Positions 1 to 4,425 of a stretch of 13,965 nt of DNA are shown in pieces (within the stretch, counting starts at the first letter, position 1; every line of letters starts with the position of its first letter). The DNA comes from a virus, in the UHGV virus genome UHGV-0234484. The stretch is one strand, 5' to 3'. The translations under genes and the position numbers were made by a program. The notes below the pieces were generated by a model that saw only the letters and a list, made by a program, of their open reading frames with translations, did no database searches and was not told the origin of the DNA.

Positions 1-2
1 CC

Positions 3-362
3 AGCATCATCCAGGATAAGGCGAAAAAGGTGTTGGCGCTGAAAGTGGATCCGGAGTCGCCGGAGTCTTTTATGTTACGCCCAAAACGTCACCGCTGGGT
101 TAATGAAAAGTACACGCGCTGGGTTAAGACGCAGCCGTGCGCATGTTGTGGAAAACCTGCTGATGATCCCCACCACCTGATAGGCCACGGTCAGGGGGGA
201 ATGGGTACAAAAGCGCATGACCTTTTTGTGTTGCCTTTGTGCAGAAAGCATCACGACGAGCTGCATGCGGATACCGTGGCATTTGAAGAGAAGTATGGCT
301 CCCAGCTGGAGCTGATATTTCGTTTTATCGATCGCGCACTGGCGATTGGTGTGCTGGCCTGA
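3..362 (+). CDS. nin-region phage protein, DUF968/HNH-like C-terminal domain; 5' end lies outside the window
   Basis: Reading frame is open from the window edge (codons from position 3) to the stop at 360-362; the listed start at 30 is a GTG inside an open frame. The translation carries a Cys/His cluster (CACCGKP...DPHHL...[12 protein letters not shown]) typical of His-Me/HNH-like zinc-binding motifs found in DUF968 proteins, which sit just upstream of Q in lambdoid prophages. Family assignment is from memory. Confidence 0.6.
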
Positions 363-379
363 TTTTGTGGAGAAAGTTA

Positions 380-763
380 ATGCGTGATATTCAGATGGTT
401 CTTGAACGTTGGGGAGCGTGGGCGGCTAATAATCATGAAGATGTGACCTGGTCGTCCATTGCCGCCGGTTTTAAGGGATTAATTCCTTCAAAAGTAAAAT
501 CTCGCCCGCAATGTTGTGACGATGACGCGATGATCATTTGCGGGTGCATGGCCCGTCTGAAAAAGAACAACAGCGATTTACACGATTTATTAGTAGATTA
601 TTATGTATGTGGTATGACATTCATGTCACTGTCAAGTAAGCATTGCTGCTCGGATGGTTATATCGGGAAAAGGTTACAGAAGGCTGAGGGCATAATTGAA
701 GGGATGTTAATGGCATTAGATATCCGGTTAGATATGGATATCGTTGCTAATAATTCTAATTGA
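380..763 (+). CDS. quuD: late-gene antiterminator Q, small Q family (phage 82 / DLP12 QuuD-like), 127 aa
   Basis: ATG at 380 is preceded by a GGAGA Shine-Dalgarno at 369-373; the six-frame ORF begins at an upstream TTG at 365. The product has Cys-rich zinc-binding patches (CCDDD...CGC, KHCC) and sits between the nin region and the lysis cassette. Recognised from memory as the DLP12-type small Q; not confirmed by search. Confidence 0.75.
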
Positions 764-900
764 TATGCAATTGTTTACTAAAAGTTATTAAAAATGGGGC
801 GTGGAAACGCCCCCAAAATAAAGGGTAATATATAACAGAAGGTTTATATAGTAAGAAGCAAGGTAGTGCTTCTAAATGAAGTGGCTTGAGGGCTCCACTT
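764..900 (+). promoter_or_regulatory. candidate late promoter (pR') and Q-utilisation region downstream of Q
   Basis: AT-rich non-coding stretch immediately after Q and before a + strand hairpin/U-tract at 901-941. In lambdoid phages pR' and qut lie directly downstream of Q. I could not pin down exact -35/-10 hexamers by eye. Confidence 0.3.
787..814 (-). terminator. rho-independent terminator on the minus strand; likely 3' end of the nmpC / IpeX-like transcript
   Basis: Inverted repeat GGGGCG-TGGAAA-CGCCCC at 796-813. On the minus strand the hairpin is followed by AUUUUUAAUAA (complement of 787-795); on the + strand no U-tract follows it. Confidence 0.5.
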
Positions 901-951
901 ATATGTTGCGGAGGCAAAGCCTCCCGCAACATATCTTTTTCGTAAGTCAGA
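789..951 (-). ncRNA. ipeX: IpeX-like regulatory 3' UTR of the porin gene (inhibitor of porin expression)
   Basis: About 160 nt untranslated stretch between the nmpC stop (952) and the minus-strand terminator at 787-814, containing a long near-perfect inverted repeat at 901-934. Published work on DLP12 nmpC and PA-2 lc places ipeX in the UTR between the porin stop codon and its terminator. Positional and structural inference only. Confidence 0.4.
901..941 (+). terminator. hairpin plus U-tract on the + strand downstream of Q (tR'-like candidate)
   Basis: Inverted repeat ATATGTTGCGGAGGC / GCCTCCCGCAACATAT at 901-934 with one bulge, followed by CTTTTT at 935-940. The U-tract is on the + strand only. 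Confidence 0.4.
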
Positions 952-2034
952 TTAGAACTGATAAACCAGACCTACAGCGACGATGTCGTCGGTATCAATA
1001 CCAGCTGTTTTGGTAAACTTACTATCGTCAATTAAGTTGATTTTGTAATCAACAAAAGTGGACATGTTTTTATTAAAGTAGTAAGTAGCACCGACATCGA
1101 CATACTTGACTAAGTCTCGGTCACCATGAACACCAAGGTCTTTACCTTTTGACTGAAGGTAAGCAACAGATGGACGCAGACCGAAGTCAAACTGATATTG
1201 TGCTACTGCTTCAAAGTTTTGTGCTTTGTTTGCAATATGGTTATTACCAAAAACGGTCATATTCTGAGTTTCAGAATATGTGGTAGCCAGATAGATATTG
1301 TTCGCATCATATTTCAGGCCTGCAGCCCATACTTCCGCATTTTTGCCGGAGGCATTGAATTTGCTCTTACCATAGGCGACCTGACCGTCAGTGCGATCTG
1401 ATTTAGCATAGGTTGCACCCACGCCGAATCCTTCATACTCATAAGTAGTGGAGAAACCGAAACCATCACCATTGGCTTCAGTTACGTCAGTGCGGTCATT
1501 TTTACCCTGATACTGAGCAGCAAAGTTCAGGCCATCGACCAGACCAAAGAAGTCGTTGTTACGATAAGTTGCAACACCAGTAGTGCGACCAGTCATGAAC
1601 ACATCTGTTTGGGTCCAGGTATCACCACCGAATTCTGGCAGGACGTCAGTCCACGCACCGATGTCGTATGCTACACCGTAGTTACGGCCGTAATCGATTG
1701 AGCCGTAATCACCAAATTTCAGGCCTGCAAATGCAAGACGGGTTTTGTCTTTGGAAGAACCTTGAGATTCAGCACGGTTGCCTTTGAATTCATATTCCCA
1801 CTGACCGAAACCAGTCAGTTGATCGTTGATTTGGGTTTCACCTTTGAAGCCAAGACGGGCATAAGTAGTATCACCATCATCTGCATCATTAGAGGAGAAG
1901 TAGTGCTTGGCATTAACTTTCCCGTATAGATCCAGCTTGTTACTGTCTTTATTATAAATTTCAGCTGCCTGAGCAGACATCGCCATCAGTACTGATGCAG
2001 CTACAGCAGAAATTGCCACTGTTAATTTTTTCAT
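952..2034 (-). CDS. nmpC: outer-membrane general porin, OmpC/PhoE family (NmpC / Lc / OmpD-like), intact, 360 aa
   Basis: N-terminal signal peptide [23 protein letters not shown] then AEIYNKD; porin-like composition rich in G, Y, D, N; C-terminal ...VGLVYQF ending in Phe, as in beta-barrel OMPs. Sits between Q and the lysis genes, as nmpC does in DLP12. No IS interruption is visible. Confidence 0.85.
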
Positions 2035-2460
2035 TGTACGCCCTTTTTTTTGAACTATTATTAAAAAATGATGTCACTGCGCGATAAATATTCATCTAAT
2101 CAATGCGATTATTTCAAGATGTAAGTTTTAGTTTCTCATTTAATTTGTGAAGTAGATCTCTATTTTTATCTAAACCTTTTCTATCTAATCCTATTCATGG
2201 CTCTTGTTTGAACGAAAATAAATCTATTAGCTAATTTATATTAATGGCACTTATTTATAAGAGATCTATAATTCTTTAGCTTAATTTAAACAAACTAAAA
2301 ATAACATCGGAAATTATTCATTGGTTATTTGTTGAAGTTTTCTTATGTATTTGTGGTGGTGTTTTGAACACTCGGTGGCATTCTCACAAATATCATTTAG
2401 TAGTTTACGTACGTAAAAAATTGGTTATGCTGTTAAGAGTGGTTACTTCGTCACACAGCT
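2035..2460 (-). promoter_or_regulatory. AT-rich upstream regulatory region and promoter of the porin gene
   Basis: About 420 bp of very AT-rich non-coding DNA directly upstream of the nmpC start at 2034, with AAGGG about 6 nt before the ATG as an RBS. No ORF of 60 aa or more in any frame. Exact promoter elements not resolved. Confidence 0.4.
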
Positions 2461-2461
2461 T

Positions 2462-2494
2462 AAACCCGCCGTCGAGCGGGTTTTTCCATTTTTT
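2462..2494 (+). terminator. rho-independent terminator on the + strand, about 130 bp upstream of the holin
   Basis: AAACCCGC-CGTCGA-GCGGGTTT stem-loop at 2462-2484 followed by TTCCATTTTTT. No U-tract on the opposite strand. Confidence 0.55.
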
Positions 2495-2623
2495 GAGTCT
2501 CGATATTAGCTGATAACCCAATACCTGAGTTATTCACTGACTCCGAATCTGTTACGTTTCTGCCTTTATTGCGATACGTAGTATCCCCTTAATTTACACC
2601 CGCTTTGTCTGCGAGGTGGGGTT

Positions 2624-2839
2624 ATGAAATCCATGGATAAGTTAACAACGGGTGTCGCCTATGGCACCTCAGCAGGTAGTGCCGGATACTGGTTTTTACA
2701 GCTGCTAGATAAAGTCACGCCCTCACAGTGGGCGGCAATTGGAGTGCTGGGTAGCCTGGTATTTGGCCTGCTGACGTACCTGACAAACCTTTATTTCAAG
2801 ATTAAAGAAGATAAGCGCAAGGCTGCGAGAGGTGGATAA
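2624..2839 (+). CDS. essD: pinholin, phage 21 S21 class, with dual-start motif (Met1 antiholin / Met4 holin), 71 aa
   Basis: Begins MKSMDK (two Met codons three codons apart), then a Gly/Ala-rich TM1 ([15 protein letters not shown]), a second TM ([18 protein letters not shown]) and a charged C-terminus [22 protein letters not shown] Shine-Dalgarno at 2612-2620. Closely matches my memory of S21/EssD. Confidence 0.9.
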
Positions 2840-3336
2840 TGCCTCCATCATTACGAAAAGCTGTTGCTGCTGCTATTGGTGGCGGGGCTATTGCTATAGC
2901 ATCTGTGTTAATCACTGGCCCAAGTGGTAACGATGGTCTGGAAGGTGTGAGACATAATCCTTACAAAGACATAGTTGGTGTATGGACTGTATGTTACGGG
3001 CATACAGGAAAAGACATCATTCCCGGTAAAACGTATACCGAAGCAGAGTGCAAAGCCCTCCTGAATAAAGACCTTGCCACTGTCGCCAGACAAATTAACC
3101 CGTACATCAAAGTCGATATACCGGAAACAACGCGCGGCGCTCTTTACTCGTTCGTCTACAACGTGGGTGCTGGCAATTTCAGAACATCGACGCTTCTTCG
3201 CAAAATCAACCAGGGCGATATCAAAGGCGCATGTGACCAGCTACGTCGCTGGACATACGCTGGCGGTAAGCAATGGAAAGGGCTGATGACTCGCCGTGAG
3301 ATTGAGCGTGAAGTCTGTTTGTGGGGGCAGCAATGA
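2839..3336 (+). CDS. rrrD: SAR endolysin (signal-anchor-release lysozyme, R21 / RrrD-like), 165 aa
   Basis: N-terminal weakly hydrophobic Gly/Ala-rich SAR segment ([20 protein letters not shown]) then a T4-lysozyme-like catalytic region with E-8aa-D-5aa-T spacing ([17 protein letters not shown]). Start ATG overlaps the holin stop (TAATG at 2837-2841). Confidence 0.9.
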
Positions 3337-3797
3337 GCAGGTTAACCGCGATTATCTCCGCTCTGGTTATCTGCATCATCGTCTGTCTGTCATGGGCTGT
3401 TAATCATTACCGTGATAACGCCATTACCTATAAAGAACAGCGCGACAAAAATACCAGAGAACTGAAGCTGGCGAACGCGGCAATTACTGACATGCAGATG
3501 CGTCAGCGTGATGTTGCTGCGCTCGATGCAAAATACACGAAGGAGTTAGCTGATGCGAAAGCTGAAAATGATGCTCTGCGTAATGATGTTGCCGTTGGTC
3601 GTCGTCGGTTGCACATCAAAGCAGTCTGTCAGCCAGTGCGTGAAGCCACCACCGCCTCCGGCGTGGGTAATGCAGCCTCCCCCCGACTTACTGACTCCGC
3701 TGAACGGGATTATTTCACCCTCAGAGAACGAATCGACACAGTGACGAAGCAGGTTGGTTATCTGCAGGAATATGTGAAAAGACAATGCGTTCAGTGA
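3333..3797 (+). CDS. rzpD: i-spanin Rz (inner-membrane spanin subunit)
   Basis: ATG at 3333 overlaps the endolysin TGA (ATGA). N-terminal TM helix ([20 protein letters not shown]) followed by a coiled-coil-like periplasmic domain. The listed ORF start at 3321 is an upstream GTG. Confidence 0.85.
3553..3744 (+). CDS. rzoD: o-spanin Rz1 (outer-membrane lipoprotein), embedded in the +1 frame of Rz
   Basis: Entirely inside Rz in another frame. Lipoprotein signal with lipobox ([14 protein letters not shown]) followed by a proline-rich mature region ([14 protein letters not shown]), the Rz1 hallmark. Confidence 0.85.
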
Positions 3798-3867
3798 CAA
3801 AAAAATCACAATCCGTATCAAAGATGAGTAAAATCTGAACTCATAAACAAATGTTGGATACATATCA

Positions 3868-4425
3868 ATGATACAGGATTGGTTAGATTACCAAAATCTC
3901 GAGACTGCTAAGTCAGCAGCGAGGGCCGCGTGGGAGTCTTTAGAATGGACGAAAATTTCAGCGATTGCCTCTTGGGTTTCTGTAGTGCTCTCTGCAATAA
4001 CCTCAGGCGTAGCTATCTACGCAATGGGTACTTGGAAATCACAAGAGAAAGTAAAAGCTAAACGTGAGATCAAAAAAGCAGCAGGTAAGCTGTATGTAGA
4101 AGTAGGGCTAATGCCACAAATATTCACAAGCAAGAATGTTACTAACGGTCAGGTTGTTTCCAAGTCACCTAATTTTGAAGTGTTGGCTAGCCAAAAAAAT
4201 CAAGGCTATATTGATGAATGGTTAATGCACGAAAAGTTATCGGAACTGTATTTACAGCTCAAATACTTGGGGTATGCCGTAGTTGATGATCTGACTAGCG
4301 CCCAAAAAGATGCGCTAAACGGTTTGGATACACATTTTCAAAATTATTATTCTTACACCGAAAGTAAGGTGAATTTTGAAAAATCTTTAAAGGATTTTTT
4401 GGATAAGATGGACATCTATAAATAG
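3868..4425 (+). CDS. hypothetical membrane-anchored protein, 185 aa, low-GC accessory (moron) gene
   Basis: Clean ORF in lower-GC, AT-rich sequence between the spanins and cos. Predicted single TM segment around residues 29-53 (ISAIASWVSVVLSAITSGVAIYAMG) followed by a Lys-rich stretch and a roughly 130-aa soluble domain. Followed by a terminator. I do not recognise the family. Confidence 0.6.
   Translation: MIQDWLDYQNLETAKSAARAAWESLEWTKISAIASWVSVVLSAITSGVAIYAMGTWKSQEKVKAKREIKKAAGKLYVEVGLMPQIFTSKNVTNGQVVSKSPNFEVLASQKNQGYIDEWLMHEKLSELYLQLKYLGYAVVDDLTSAQKDALNGLDTHFQNYYSYTESKVNFEKSLKDFLDKMDIYK

What the first reader, a model, noticed from the sequence alone, without database searches (positions are those of the whole stretch)
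764..941. Q-proximal late control region: candidate pR'/qut followed by a + strand hairpin and U-tract
Directly after Q there is an AT-rich stretch and then a long inverted repeat with a + strand U-tract (901-941). This fits the lambdoid pattern of pR' giving a short transcript that ends at tR' unless Q modifies RNA polymerase. The same DNA on the other strand is the porin 3' UTR, so one segment may serve as late-gene control on one strand and as a porin-regulatory RNA on the other.
Basis: inference. Interest (0 to 1): 0.4.

Follow-up and report, generated by a model that had tools for sequence, protein, structure and literature searches.

The report
Porin 3' UTR, not late promoter
The hairpin and T-run after the phage Q gene are real, but they belong to the already known tail (IpeX region) of the oppositely oriented prophage porin gene, and the phage's late promoter and terminator lie 1.6 kb further on, just before the lysis genes.

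Summary
Positions 764-795 are 16% G+C. Positions 901-934 form a 15-bp bulged hairpin (dG -21.9 kcal/mol, z -7) followed by CTTTTT on the + strand.

The pR'/qut/tR' reading is not supported. The Q protein here (380-763, Pfam PF06530) is 80% identical to Q of Stx phage VT2-Sakai/933W. The homologue of that phage's promoter and first terminator lies at window 2401-2485, beyond the porin gene and 140 bp before the holin. It consists of:
- a -35 hexamer TTTACG (2404-2409) and a -10 hexamer TATGCT (2426-2431);
- a start at A2438;
- a terminator hairpin at 2462-2483 plus a T-run.

In E. coli K-12 DLP12, which is identical over this core, Cappable-seq maps a start at exactly that A. It lists no + strand start in the Q-porin spacer. 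Porin-less relatives (VT2-Sakai, 1720a-02) place this core directly after Q.

Positions 764-951 occur only together with the porin. They are 93% identical to the DLP12/PA-2 ipeX region, the nmpC/lc 3' UTR. K-12 Term-seq shows minus-strand RNA 3' ends at the equivalents of positions 790 and 898.

The + strand hairpin with its T-run is at most a boundary terminator that shields the porin cassette. The region is already known and of low interest.

The parts
380..763 (+). Q antiterminator gene (127 aa, QuuD type, Q21/Q933W family)
   Evidence: Pfam PF06530, E 2.4e-53. 80% identical to VT2-Sakai Q and 50% to 1720a-02 Q. Distant match to the Q21 structures 6P18 and 6JNX. DNA homology to the Stx-phage Q gene ends at 712.
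790..813 (-). Intrinsic terminator of the porin/IpeX transcript: stem 813-796 (GGGGCGT-TTCC-ACGCCCC) and U-run 794-790
   Evidence: Terminator scan hit. dG -13.8 kcal/mol. The stem is invariant and the loop varies in 6 copies. K-12 Term-seq minus-strand 3' ends at 574367 and 574366 equal window 790 and 789.
829..900 (-). Three small stem-loops inside the 3' UTR RNA (829-850, 854-873, 879-900)
   Evidence: The single-sequence fold of 788-951 minus strand gives -53.6 kcal/mol, z -5.95, and there is a consensus fold of 6 copies. Covariation is too sparse to prove them.
901..934 (.). 15-bp bulged hairpin. On the minus strand it is the 5'-proximal stem-loop of the porin 3' UTR (IpeX). On the + strand it is the stem of a possible terminator.
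   Evidence: A K-12 Term-seq minus-strand 3' end at 574476 lies 3 nt past the stem, equal to window 898.
935..941 (+). C-TTTTT-C run after the hairpin. With 901-934 it forms a plausible + strand intrinsic terminator at the porin cassette boundary.
   Evidence: Sequence. 5 T in 4 copies and 4 T in 2 copies. No + strand 3' end is listed here in K-12 Term-seq. Function is inferred only.
952..2034 (-). Porin gene (360 aa, nmpC/lc type)
   Evidence: Pfam Porin_1, E 1.9e-151. Annotated nmpC, lc or OmpD in relatives.
2404..2438 (+). The late promoter pR': -35 TTTACG 2404-2409, 16-bp spacer, -10 TATGCT 2426-2431, start A2438. The palindrome TTTACGTACGTAAA at 2404-2417 is a candidate Q-binding element.
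   Evidence: Homologous to the annotated pR' of VT2-Sakai and SC370. K-12 Cappable-seq start at the same A. Sakai dRNA-seq start 258 nt before the tR' 3' end. The Q-binding-element assignment is inference.
2462..2494 (+). tR': hairpin AAACCCGC-CGTCGA-GCGGGTTT (2462-2483) followed by TTCCATTTTTT. It would end a transcript of about 50 nt.
   Evidence: Terminator scan. 96% identical to the stretch 37 bp after Q in the porin-less phage 1720a-02. Annotated as a terminator in VT2-Sakai and SC370. Phage 21 has its terminator at +3 to +50.
2624..2839 (+). Holin S21 type, the first late gene downstream of pR'/tR'
   Evidence: Pfam PF04971, E 2e-35.

Best explanation
Positions 764-951 are the 3' untranslated and terminator region of a prophage porin gene of the nmpC/lc type. 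This is the segment known in DLP12 and PA-2 as ipeX.

How it works on the minus strand:
- It is transcribed from the porin promoter as the tail of the porin mRNA.
- The RNA begins with the strong 941-901 stem-loop, carries three smaller stem-loops, and ends at the intrinsic terminator 813-796 with its U-run to about 790.
- According to the literature, this roughly 165-nt RNA lowers host OmpC/OmpF synthesis.

The whole block 713-2400 (a new Q 3' end, ipeX, the porin and its upstream region) is a reverse-oriented cargo cassette ("moron") sitting between Q and the late promoter.

The late control element proper is at 2404-2494. It comprises pR' with start A2438, probably a Q-binding site over the -35 region, and a terminator about 50 nt downstream, directly before the holin.

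The + strand hairpin plus CTTTTT at 901-941 is not tR'. At most it stops ordinary, non-antiterminated transcription leaving Q from running antisense into the porin gene.

Status of the steps:
- Shown: the homology, the positions, and the mapped RNA ends in the relatives.
- Inferred: IpeX activity of this particular copy, and the insulating role of the + strand terminator.
For: Location of pR'/tR':
- Q belongs to the Q21/Q933W family and is 80% identical to VT2-Sakai Q.
- Window 2401-2485 matches VT2-Sakai's annotated promoter, qut and terminator immediately after Q. It is 96% identical to the stretch 37 bp after Q in the porin-less 1720a-02 and Stx2_499.
- Relative to VT2-Sakai, homology breaks at 712 and resumes at 2401.
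- The K-12 DLP12 promoter core is identical to the window and has a Cappable-seq start at the predicted A. The Sakai start is 258 nt from the tR' 3' end, which falls on the same A.
- Phage 21 has the same layout: -35, Q-binding element, -10, start, and a terminator ending at +50.

Identity of 764-951:
- It is found in only 36 phage records, all carrying the porin, against 360 records for the pR' core.
- It is 93% identical to the K-12 quuD-nmpC spacer, which is itself 100% identical to the PA-2 lc 3' flank.
- IpeX is described as 167 nt, from DLP12, and made as part of the porin transcript.
- K-12 Term-seq gives abundant minus-strand 3' ends after both hairpins.
- PnmpC is active in K-12 and reads through nmpC::IS5.
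Against: - No experiment was done on this exact sequence. All RNA-end data come from K-12 DLP12 (93% identical in the spacer) and from Sakai.
- The mapped pR' start in K-12 is weak (relative score 1.7, cut-off 1.5), so an even weaker start in the spacer could have been missed.
- The held Cappable-seq file is truncated, and only its + strand list was seen.
- The true pR' scores only 8 of 12 against the sigma-70 consensus, the same as two chance-level candidates in 802-852. Sequence alone therefore cannot exclude a weak promoter there.
- In Sakai the mapped pR' transcript runs 258 nt to a second terminator, so the first hairpin, the one conserved here, may be leaky.
- Rfam has no IpeX family, so no model-based confirmation was possible.
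- Covariation does not discriminate between the strands.
Confidence: 0.85

Rival explanations
1. A late promoter pR' with a qut site lies in 764-900 on the + strand. Its transcript ends at the 901-941 hairpin and U-run unless Q modifies RNA polymerase. Antiterminated transcription then crosses the porin gene antisense to reach the lysis genes.
For: - The position directly after Q is the usual place for pR' in lambda, 21 and 933W.
- A real + strand hairpin with a T-run exists.
- Two weak hexamer pairs exist: TGGAAA-18-TAATAT at 802-831 and GTAATA-16-TATAGT at 825-852, each 8 of 12.
Against: - The homologue of the cognate promoter and terminator is at 2401-2485 and has mapped starts in two relatives.
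- No + strand start is listed in the K-12 spacer.
- The hexamer pairs are at chance level, and one of them lies across the G+C hairpin 796-813.
- None of the motifs shared by the cognate promoters occurs in 764-951.
- The segment is absent from all porin-less phages with this Q family and travels with the porin.
- A late transcript would have to traverse 1.7 kb against the porin gene and then meet a second promoter-terminator unit.
Confidence: 0.03
2. The + strand hairpin and U-run are a working intrinsic terminator that marks the boundary of the porin cassette. It stops unmodified RNA polymerase coming out of Q from colliding with or silencing porin/IpeX transcription. Such polymerase could come from leaky early transcription or from the start mapped inside quuD. 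N-modified polymerase reads through during lytic growth. This adds to the best explanation rather than replacing it.
For: - A stable stem followed by CTTTTT.
- The convergent arrangement with the minus-strand terminator.
- A + strand Cappable-seq start inside quuD, equivalent to window ~607, would feed transcription into this site.
- Inserting an extra rrnB terminator in the K-12 nmpC/quuD spacer had no measurable effect on IS5 transposition, the read-out used there for transcription entering from the quuD side. That fits little read-through, but equally fits little transcription to begin with.
Against: - No + strand 3' end is listed at the K-12 equivalent (574514-574520) in Term-seq.
- The stem base next to the U-run is A/U-rich, and the U-run has only 4-5 residues (4 in two of six copies).
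- SfII has a similar reverse-oriented cargo only 3 bp after Q with no such terminator.
Confidence: 0.35
3. A discrete + strand RNA of about 335 nt starts at the promoter inside Q (~607) and ends at 901-941. It is fully complementary to IpeX and acts as its antisense regulator or sponge.
For: A + strand start is mapped inside quuD in K-12 (relative score 9.3), next to a good consensus match in the window, TTTACA-16-TATTAT at 577-604. The only + strand terminator-like structure downstream of it is 901-941.
Against: - No + strand 3' end was detected.
- The mapped start is only 3 nt after the TATTAT hexamer, which is odd spacing.
- No such RNA has been reported.
- IpeX is far more abundant in the K-12 data.
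Confidence: 0.08

Closest known systems
ipeX / the nmpC-lc 3' UTR of cryptic prophage DLP12 and phage PA-2 (Castillo-Keller, Vuong & Misra 2006, as summarised in PMC12197685, PMC3617542 and PMC5069750)
   Same: - The same position, between the porin stop codon and the convergent Q gene.
- 93% nucleotide identity over all 188 bp, with the same four or five stem-loops and the same minus-strand intrinsic terminator.
- The K-12 and PA-2 copies are identical to each other.
   Different: - Ten substitutions and three indel positions, including a G-to-C change that shifts the bulge in the large hairpin and two changes that shorten the 879-900 stem.
- The porin here is intact (360 aa), as in PA-2, and not IS5-disrupted as in K-12.
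- Regulatory activity of this copy was not tested.
pR'-qut-tR' unit of Stx phages 933W and VT2-Sakai (Sp5), source of the StxS RNA (PMC7547250)
   Same: - The Q protein is 80% identical.
- Window 2401-2485 aligns with the annotated promoter, putative qut and first terminator.
- Shared elements are the -35 TTTACG, the TAAGAGTGGTTAC start region and the CCCGC/GCGGG hairpin with a U-run.
   Different: - In the Stx phages this unit overlaps the 3' end of Q. Here it is 1.64 kb downstream, behind a reverse-oriented porin cassette.
- Homology stops at 2485, so the 258-nt leader, the second terminator and StxS are absent, and the holin follows after 140 bp.
- None of this unit lies in the finding's coordinates.
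Phage 21 late control region (Guo et al. 1991; Yin et al. 2019; annotated in OL657228.1)
   Same: - The same Q family (PF06530).
- The same logic and dimensions: promoter, start, and a terminator ending about +50, followed by an S21-type holin.
   Different: - No detectable DNA similarity in the promoter.
- The phage 21 Q-binding element is a direct repeat, ATTGAGCA/AATGAGCA, between -35 and -10. The window instead has a palindrome, TTTACGTACGTAAA, over the -35.
- Q21 is only distantly related to this Q (E 8e-8).
Morons of lambdoid phages: autonomous cargo genes with their own promoter and terminator (Hendrix and colleagues; from my own knowledge)
   Same: - A porin gene with its own promoter and terminator, opposite in orientation to the flanking phage genes.
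- It is absent from close relatives.
- The same slot holds other cargo in SfII and Stx2a_1447.
   Different: The slot lies between Q and pR' rather than in the better-known late-operon positions. The cassette replaces the last ~50 nt of Q.

Membership tests
Lambdoid pR'-qut-tR' late control unit (claimed for 764-941) | A constitutive sigma-70 promoter with a mapped start on the late-gene strand | tested here: not met
   No scan hit on the + strand in 764-900. Relaxed hexamer pairs are at chance level. No + strand Cappable-seq start lies in the homologous K-12 spacer. This is indirect: K-12 is not this exact sequence.
Lambdoid pR'-qut-tR' late control unit (claimed for 764-941) | A Q-binding element cognate to the adjacent Q, judged by similarity to promoters used by close Q homologues | tested here: not met
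   The motifs shared by the window 2404-2446, K-12 and VT2-Sakai units (TTTACGnnCGTAAA, TAAGAGTGGTTAC) have no match within 4 mismatches that is meaningful in 764-951.
Lambdoid pR'-qut-tR' late control unit (claimed for 764-941) | An intrinsic terminator on the same strand shortly after the start | tested here: met
   The 901-934 hairpin (dG -21.9, z -7) is followed by CTTTTT. Termination activity itself was not tested.
Lambdoid pR'-qut-tR' late control unit (claimed for 764-941) | Late (lysis and morphogenesis) genes follow in the same orientation | tested here: not met
   The next gene is the porin on the opposite strand (952-2034). The holin begins at 2624 and is preceded by its own promoter-terminator unit.
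Lambdoid pR'-qut-tR' late control unit (claimed for 764-941) | Sigma-dependent promoter-proximal pause and Q-dependent read-through | not testable with these tools
   This needs in vitro transcription with and without Q.
Lambdoid pR'-qut-tR' late control unit (as located by me at 2404-2494) | Promoter with a mapped start, homology to the unit used by a close Q homologue, a terminator within ~50 nt, and late genes downstream | tested here: met
   The pause element and the Q response were not tested, and no clear -10-like pause element was recognised by eye.
ipeX / nmpC-lc porin 3' UTR RNA | Lies immediately 3' of an nmpC/lc-type prophage porin stop codon, on the porin strand | tested here: met
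   Porin stop at 952. The segment runs 951 to 790 on the minus strand.
ipeX / nmpC-lc porin 3' UTR RNA | Sequence homology to the DLP12/PA-2 ipeX segment | tested here: met
   93.2% over 188-190 bp to both. K-12 and PA-2 are 100% identical to each other.
ipeX / nmpC-lc porin 3' UTR RNA | Ends at a Rho-independent terminator on the porin strand, giving an RNA of about 167 nt | tested here: met
   Terminator at 813-796 with its U-run. From the stop codon to position 790 is about 163-165 nt. K-12 Term-seq 3' ends fall at the equivalent position. The 167-nt length is from PMC12197685.
ipeX / nmpC-lc porin 3' UTR RNA | Represses OmpC/OmpF expression | not testable with these tools
   Literature only.
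Phage moron (autonomous cargo cassette) | Present or absent between otherwise homologous flanks in related phages, with its own promoter and terminator | tested here: met
   The flanks 380-712 and 2401-2485 are contiguous (86 bp apart) in VT2-Sakai.

The most novel reading that the evidence does not exclude
The + strand hairpin and U-run at 901-941 end a previously undescribed transcript of about 335 nt. That transcript starts at a promoter inside the Q gene (near 607, mapped in K-12 by Cappable-seq). It is fully antisense to IpeX and tunes the prophage's control over host porins. One spacer would then encode two opposing regulatory RNAs.
Probability: 0.08. Interest if true: 0.4.

Novelty: already known. 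Interest (0 to 1): 0.1.

Why it matters
The result has little wider consequence. Its main use is as an annotation correction.

In DLP12/PA-2-type lambdoid prophages, which are present in a large share of E. coli genomes, the Q gene is not followed by its late promoter. A reverse-oriented porin cassette with the IpeX 3' UTR lies between them. The pR'/tR' unit is directly upstream of the S21-type holin.

Anyone modelling late-gene or lysis-gene control, or Q-dependent expression of DLP12 lysis genes, should use 2404-2494 and not the Q-proximal spacer.

The data also show that the junction between Q and pR' is a recurrent landing site for reverse-oriented cargo in this phage group.

Tried and rejected
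- **Rfam scan of 1-3000 at E<=1.** There is no IpeX family. The only hits were two chance matches: sau-19 on the hairpin, and Trp_leader on the 2462-2483 terminator.
- **Covariation to decide which strand's RNA structure is selected.** The six copies are 97% identical. One change gives a G.U pair only on the minus strand (3 sequences) and another gives a G.U pair only on the + strand (1 sequence). The test is uninformative.
- **Consensus promoter scan as evidence against a promoter in 764-900.** This is weak, because the real pR' also falls below the scan threshold at 8 of 12. I therefore relied on homology and mapped starts.
- **Further K-12 RNA-end datasets.** The SMRT-Cappable-seq supplements had no entry near these coordinates. 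The nanopore paper has no held supplements. The Thomason 2015 and Ju 2019 papers and the original IpeX paper (Castillo-Keller 2006) are not held.
- **E. coli genome hits with only the Q end or only the porin end.** These are IS-truncated remnants and say nothing about modular inheritance.
- **A sigma-dependent pause element downstream of A2438.** No convincing -10-like hexamer was recognised by eye. This is left open.
- **ORFs 756-932 (minus strand) and 876-1016 (+ strand; PA-2 'ORF1').** The ATG at 876 is not conserved (AGG in K-12 and others), so I treat them as spurious.
- **A paper search for essD/quuD with loose matching.** It returned only unrelated hits.

Full report
**Layout of the window**

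The left end of the window is the late-control and lysis region of a lambdoid (DLP12/PA-2-like) prophage.

| Coordinates | Strand | Feature |
|---|---|---|
| 30-362 | + | DUF968/HNH gene |
| 380-763 | + | Q antiterminator, 127 aa, Pfam PF06530 |
| 952-2034 | - | 360-aa general porin |
| 2624-2839 | + | S21-type holin |
| 2839-3336 | + | lysozyme |
| 3321-3797 | + | Rz |

The finding covers the convergent spacer between the Q stop codon and the porin stop codon.

**Check of the observation**

- The stretch 764-795 has 15.6% G+C.
- Positions 901-934 form a 15-bp stem with one bulge and an AAA loop. As + strand RNA the free energy is -21.9 kcal/mol with z -7.0, and none of 200 shuffles folds as well.
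- C-TTTTT-C follows on the + strand. On the minus strand the same stem is followed by AAGUGG, so only the + strand reads as a stem followed by a U-run.
- The hairpin is kept in six copies that differ elsewhere. The window's G-to-C change merely moves the bulge.
- The description is therefore accurate and the structure is not a chance feature.

**Where the late promoter is**

The Q protein belongs to the Q21/Q933W family as defined by Yin et al.. It is 80% identical to Q of Stx2 phage VT2-Sakai/933W.

A sensitive DNA search with the porin-holin spacer found 360 phage records.
- Most records match only window 2401-2485.
- In the Stx phages that stretch lies on the 3' end of Q and is annotated 'putative late promoter / putative Q-utilization / rho-independent terminator' (VT2-Sakai; SC370 'pR'').
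- Relative to VT2-Sakai, homology runs 380-712, breaks, and resumes at 2401-2485. The two flanks are 86 bp apart in the Stx phage and 1,688 bp apart here.
- In the porin-less phages 1720a-02 and Stx2_499, a 126-aa Q of the same family is followed after 37 bp by a stretch 94-96% identical to window 2431-2485.

The aligned unit reads as follows:

| Element | Sequence | Coordinates |
|---|---|---|
| -35 hexamer | TTTACG | 2404-2409 |
| spacer | 16 bp | 2410-2425 |
| -10 hexamer | TATGCT | 2426-2431 |
| start region | GTTAAG-A-GTGGTTAC, start at the A | A2438 |
| terminator hairpin | AAACCCGC-CGTCGA-GCGGGTTT | 2462-2483 |
| tail | TTCCATTTTTT | 2484-2494 |

**Experimental anchors in relatives**

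- *K-12 start site.* E. coli K-12 DLP12 is identical to the window over the whole promoter-terminator core. The Cappable-seq list for MG1655 (PMC4782308, U00096.2 coordinates) has a + strand start at 576452. I applied an offset of 777 between U00096.2 and U00096.3 (776-bp IS1 plus 1 bp in ylbE). The offset comes from my own knowledge and is consistent with the sequence context. It gives 577229, the A of TAAG[A]GTGG, 7 nt after TATGCT. That A is window A2438.
- *Sakai start site.* In strain Sakai, dRNA-seq and Term-seq put the pR' start 258 nt upstream of the tR' 3' end (PMC7547250). Counted back from the U-run of the second annotated terminator in VT2-Sakai, this falls on the same conserved A.
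- *No start in the spacer.* The same + strand Cappable-seq list has no entry between 573406 and 575093. There is therefore none in the quuD-nmpC spacer that corresponds to 764-951.
- *Phage 21.* The type member of the Q family is annotated with -35, Q-binding element, -10, start, pause element and a terminator spanning +3 to +50. The dimensions match the unit at 2404-2494, although the DNA is not alignable.

**What 764-951 is**

- The segment occurs in only 36 phage records, the same number that carry the whole Q-porin-holin block. These include PA-2 (the lc gene record) and a 434/DLP12 recombinant.
- It is 93% identical to the K-12 quuD-nmpC spacer, and that spacer is 100% identical to the PA-2 lc 3' flank.
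- This is the ipeX segment. [quoted passage not shown]
- On the minus strand the spacer ends in a clean intrinsic terminator, GGGGCGUUUCCACGCCCC-AUUUUU at 813-790. Its stem is invariant and its loop varies at three of four positions among copies.
- The distance from the porin stop codon to position 790 is about 165 nt.
- K-12 Term-seq (PMC7815308, supplementary file 1) lists abundant minus-strand 3' ends. Those at 574367 and 574366 fall on the last U of that run, equal to window 790 and 789. One at 574476 lies 3 nt after the large hairpin, equal to window 898. No + strand 3' ends are listed at the + strand T-run.
- The nmpC promoter is active in K-12 and reads through nmpC::IS5, which explains those RNAs.
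- The minus-strand RNA 951-788 folds into the large 5' stem-loop, three smaller ones and the terminator (-53.6 kcal/mol, z -5.95).

**The + strand hairpin with its T-run**

It cannot be tR' of this phage, but it may still terminate ordinary transcription leaving Q.
- Points in favour: the structure itself, and a + strand start mapped inside quuD in K-12, at the equivalent of about 607, that would feed into it.
- Points against: no + strand 3' end in Term-seq, an A/U-rich stem base with only 4-5 U, and phage SfII, which carries a different reverse-oriented cargo 3 bp after Q with no such structure.
- I rate a boundary-terminator role at about one in three.
- I rate a discrete antisense-to-IpeX RNA at under one in ten.

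**Limits**

- Nothing was measured on this exact DNA.
- The K-12 pR' start is just above the Cappable-seq cut-off.
- The held start-site file is truncated, and only its + strand part was seen.
- The true pR' is a poor consensus match (8 of 12), so consensus scanning cannot exclude a weak promoter in 802-852.
- In Sakai the homologous first hairpin is evidently not the main 3' end.
- Covariation is too sparse to assign the spacer structures to one strand.

**Verdict**

- The late-control interpretation is misplaced by 1.6 kb.
- The remark about a porin-regulatory RNA on the other strand is correct and corresponds to a known element.
- There is nothing new in kind.

Noticed in passing
window 577-611 (+), inside the Q gene: K-12 Cappable-seq lists a + strand start inside quuD (U00096.2 573406, relative score 9.3), equivalent to window ~607. 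It lies next to a strong consensus match, TTTACA-16-TATTAT (577-604). The mapped start is only 3 nt after the -10 hexamer, which is odd. No annotated transcript corresponds to it.
   Followed up: partly
window ~2035-2070 (+), start ~2068: K-12 has a strong + strand Cappable-seq start (U00096.2 576081, relative score 90) about 33 nt upstream of the porin start codon and divergent from it. It is preceded by TATTAT (2056-2061). Its transcript would run through the 27% G+C region 2035-2400 and into pR'/tR'. No gene or RNA is annotated there.
   Followed up: partly
window 2404-2417: A perfect 14-bp palindrome, TTTACGTACGTAAA, covers the -35 of pR'. VT2-Sakai has TTTACGATCGTAAA, which is also perfectly palindromic with the central dinucleotide swapped. 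SfII and Stx2a_1447 have CGCGTACGCAAAAA. It may be the Q-binding element of Q933W/QuuD-type Q proteins. The phage 21 element is a direct repeat instead.
   Followed up: partly
L018 (SfII) 1767-3982; L004 (Stx2a_1447) 1-977; window 713-2400: The slot between Q and the pR' core holds different reverse-oriented cargo in different phages. Here and in PA-2/DLP12 it is the porin. In SfII it is two hypothetical genes, one of 340 aa with no Pfam hit. In Stx2a_1447 the ORF immediately upstream of the pR' core is an unrelated reverse-oriented 343-aa ORF (Q itself was not located there). The slot is empty in VT2-Sakai, 1720a-02 and phage 21. It looks like a recurrent cargo insertion site.
   Followed up: partly
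window 600-629 (-): A minus-strand promoter-like site, GTGACA-18-CATAAT (10 of 12), lies inside Q. Its position recalls the antisense paQ promoter of lambda and phage 21. No CII-type TTGC-N6-TTGC box was seen by eye.
   Followed up: no
window 713-763 versus L001 615-716: This Q (127 aa, as QuuD) lacks the C-terminal tail of about 17 residues present in Q933W. The cassette junction lies inside the Q reading frame, and the last ~17 codons here are unrelated to those of the Stx-phage Q.
   Followed up: partly
L001 (VT2-Sakai) 764-786 versus 967-995: In Sakai the published pR' transcript is 258 nt and ends at the second terminator. Yet the first hairpin with 7 U at +27 to +49, the one conserved in this window, looks like a good terminator. 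Either it is leaky there, or short products were not scored.
   Followed up: no
window 2565-2590 versus K-12, PhiR26_1, PhiR70_1: A 19-bp indel (CTGCCTTTATTGCGATA region) lies between tR' and the holin start. It is present here and in ev099, Turner and SfII, and absent in K-12 DLP12.
   Followed up: no
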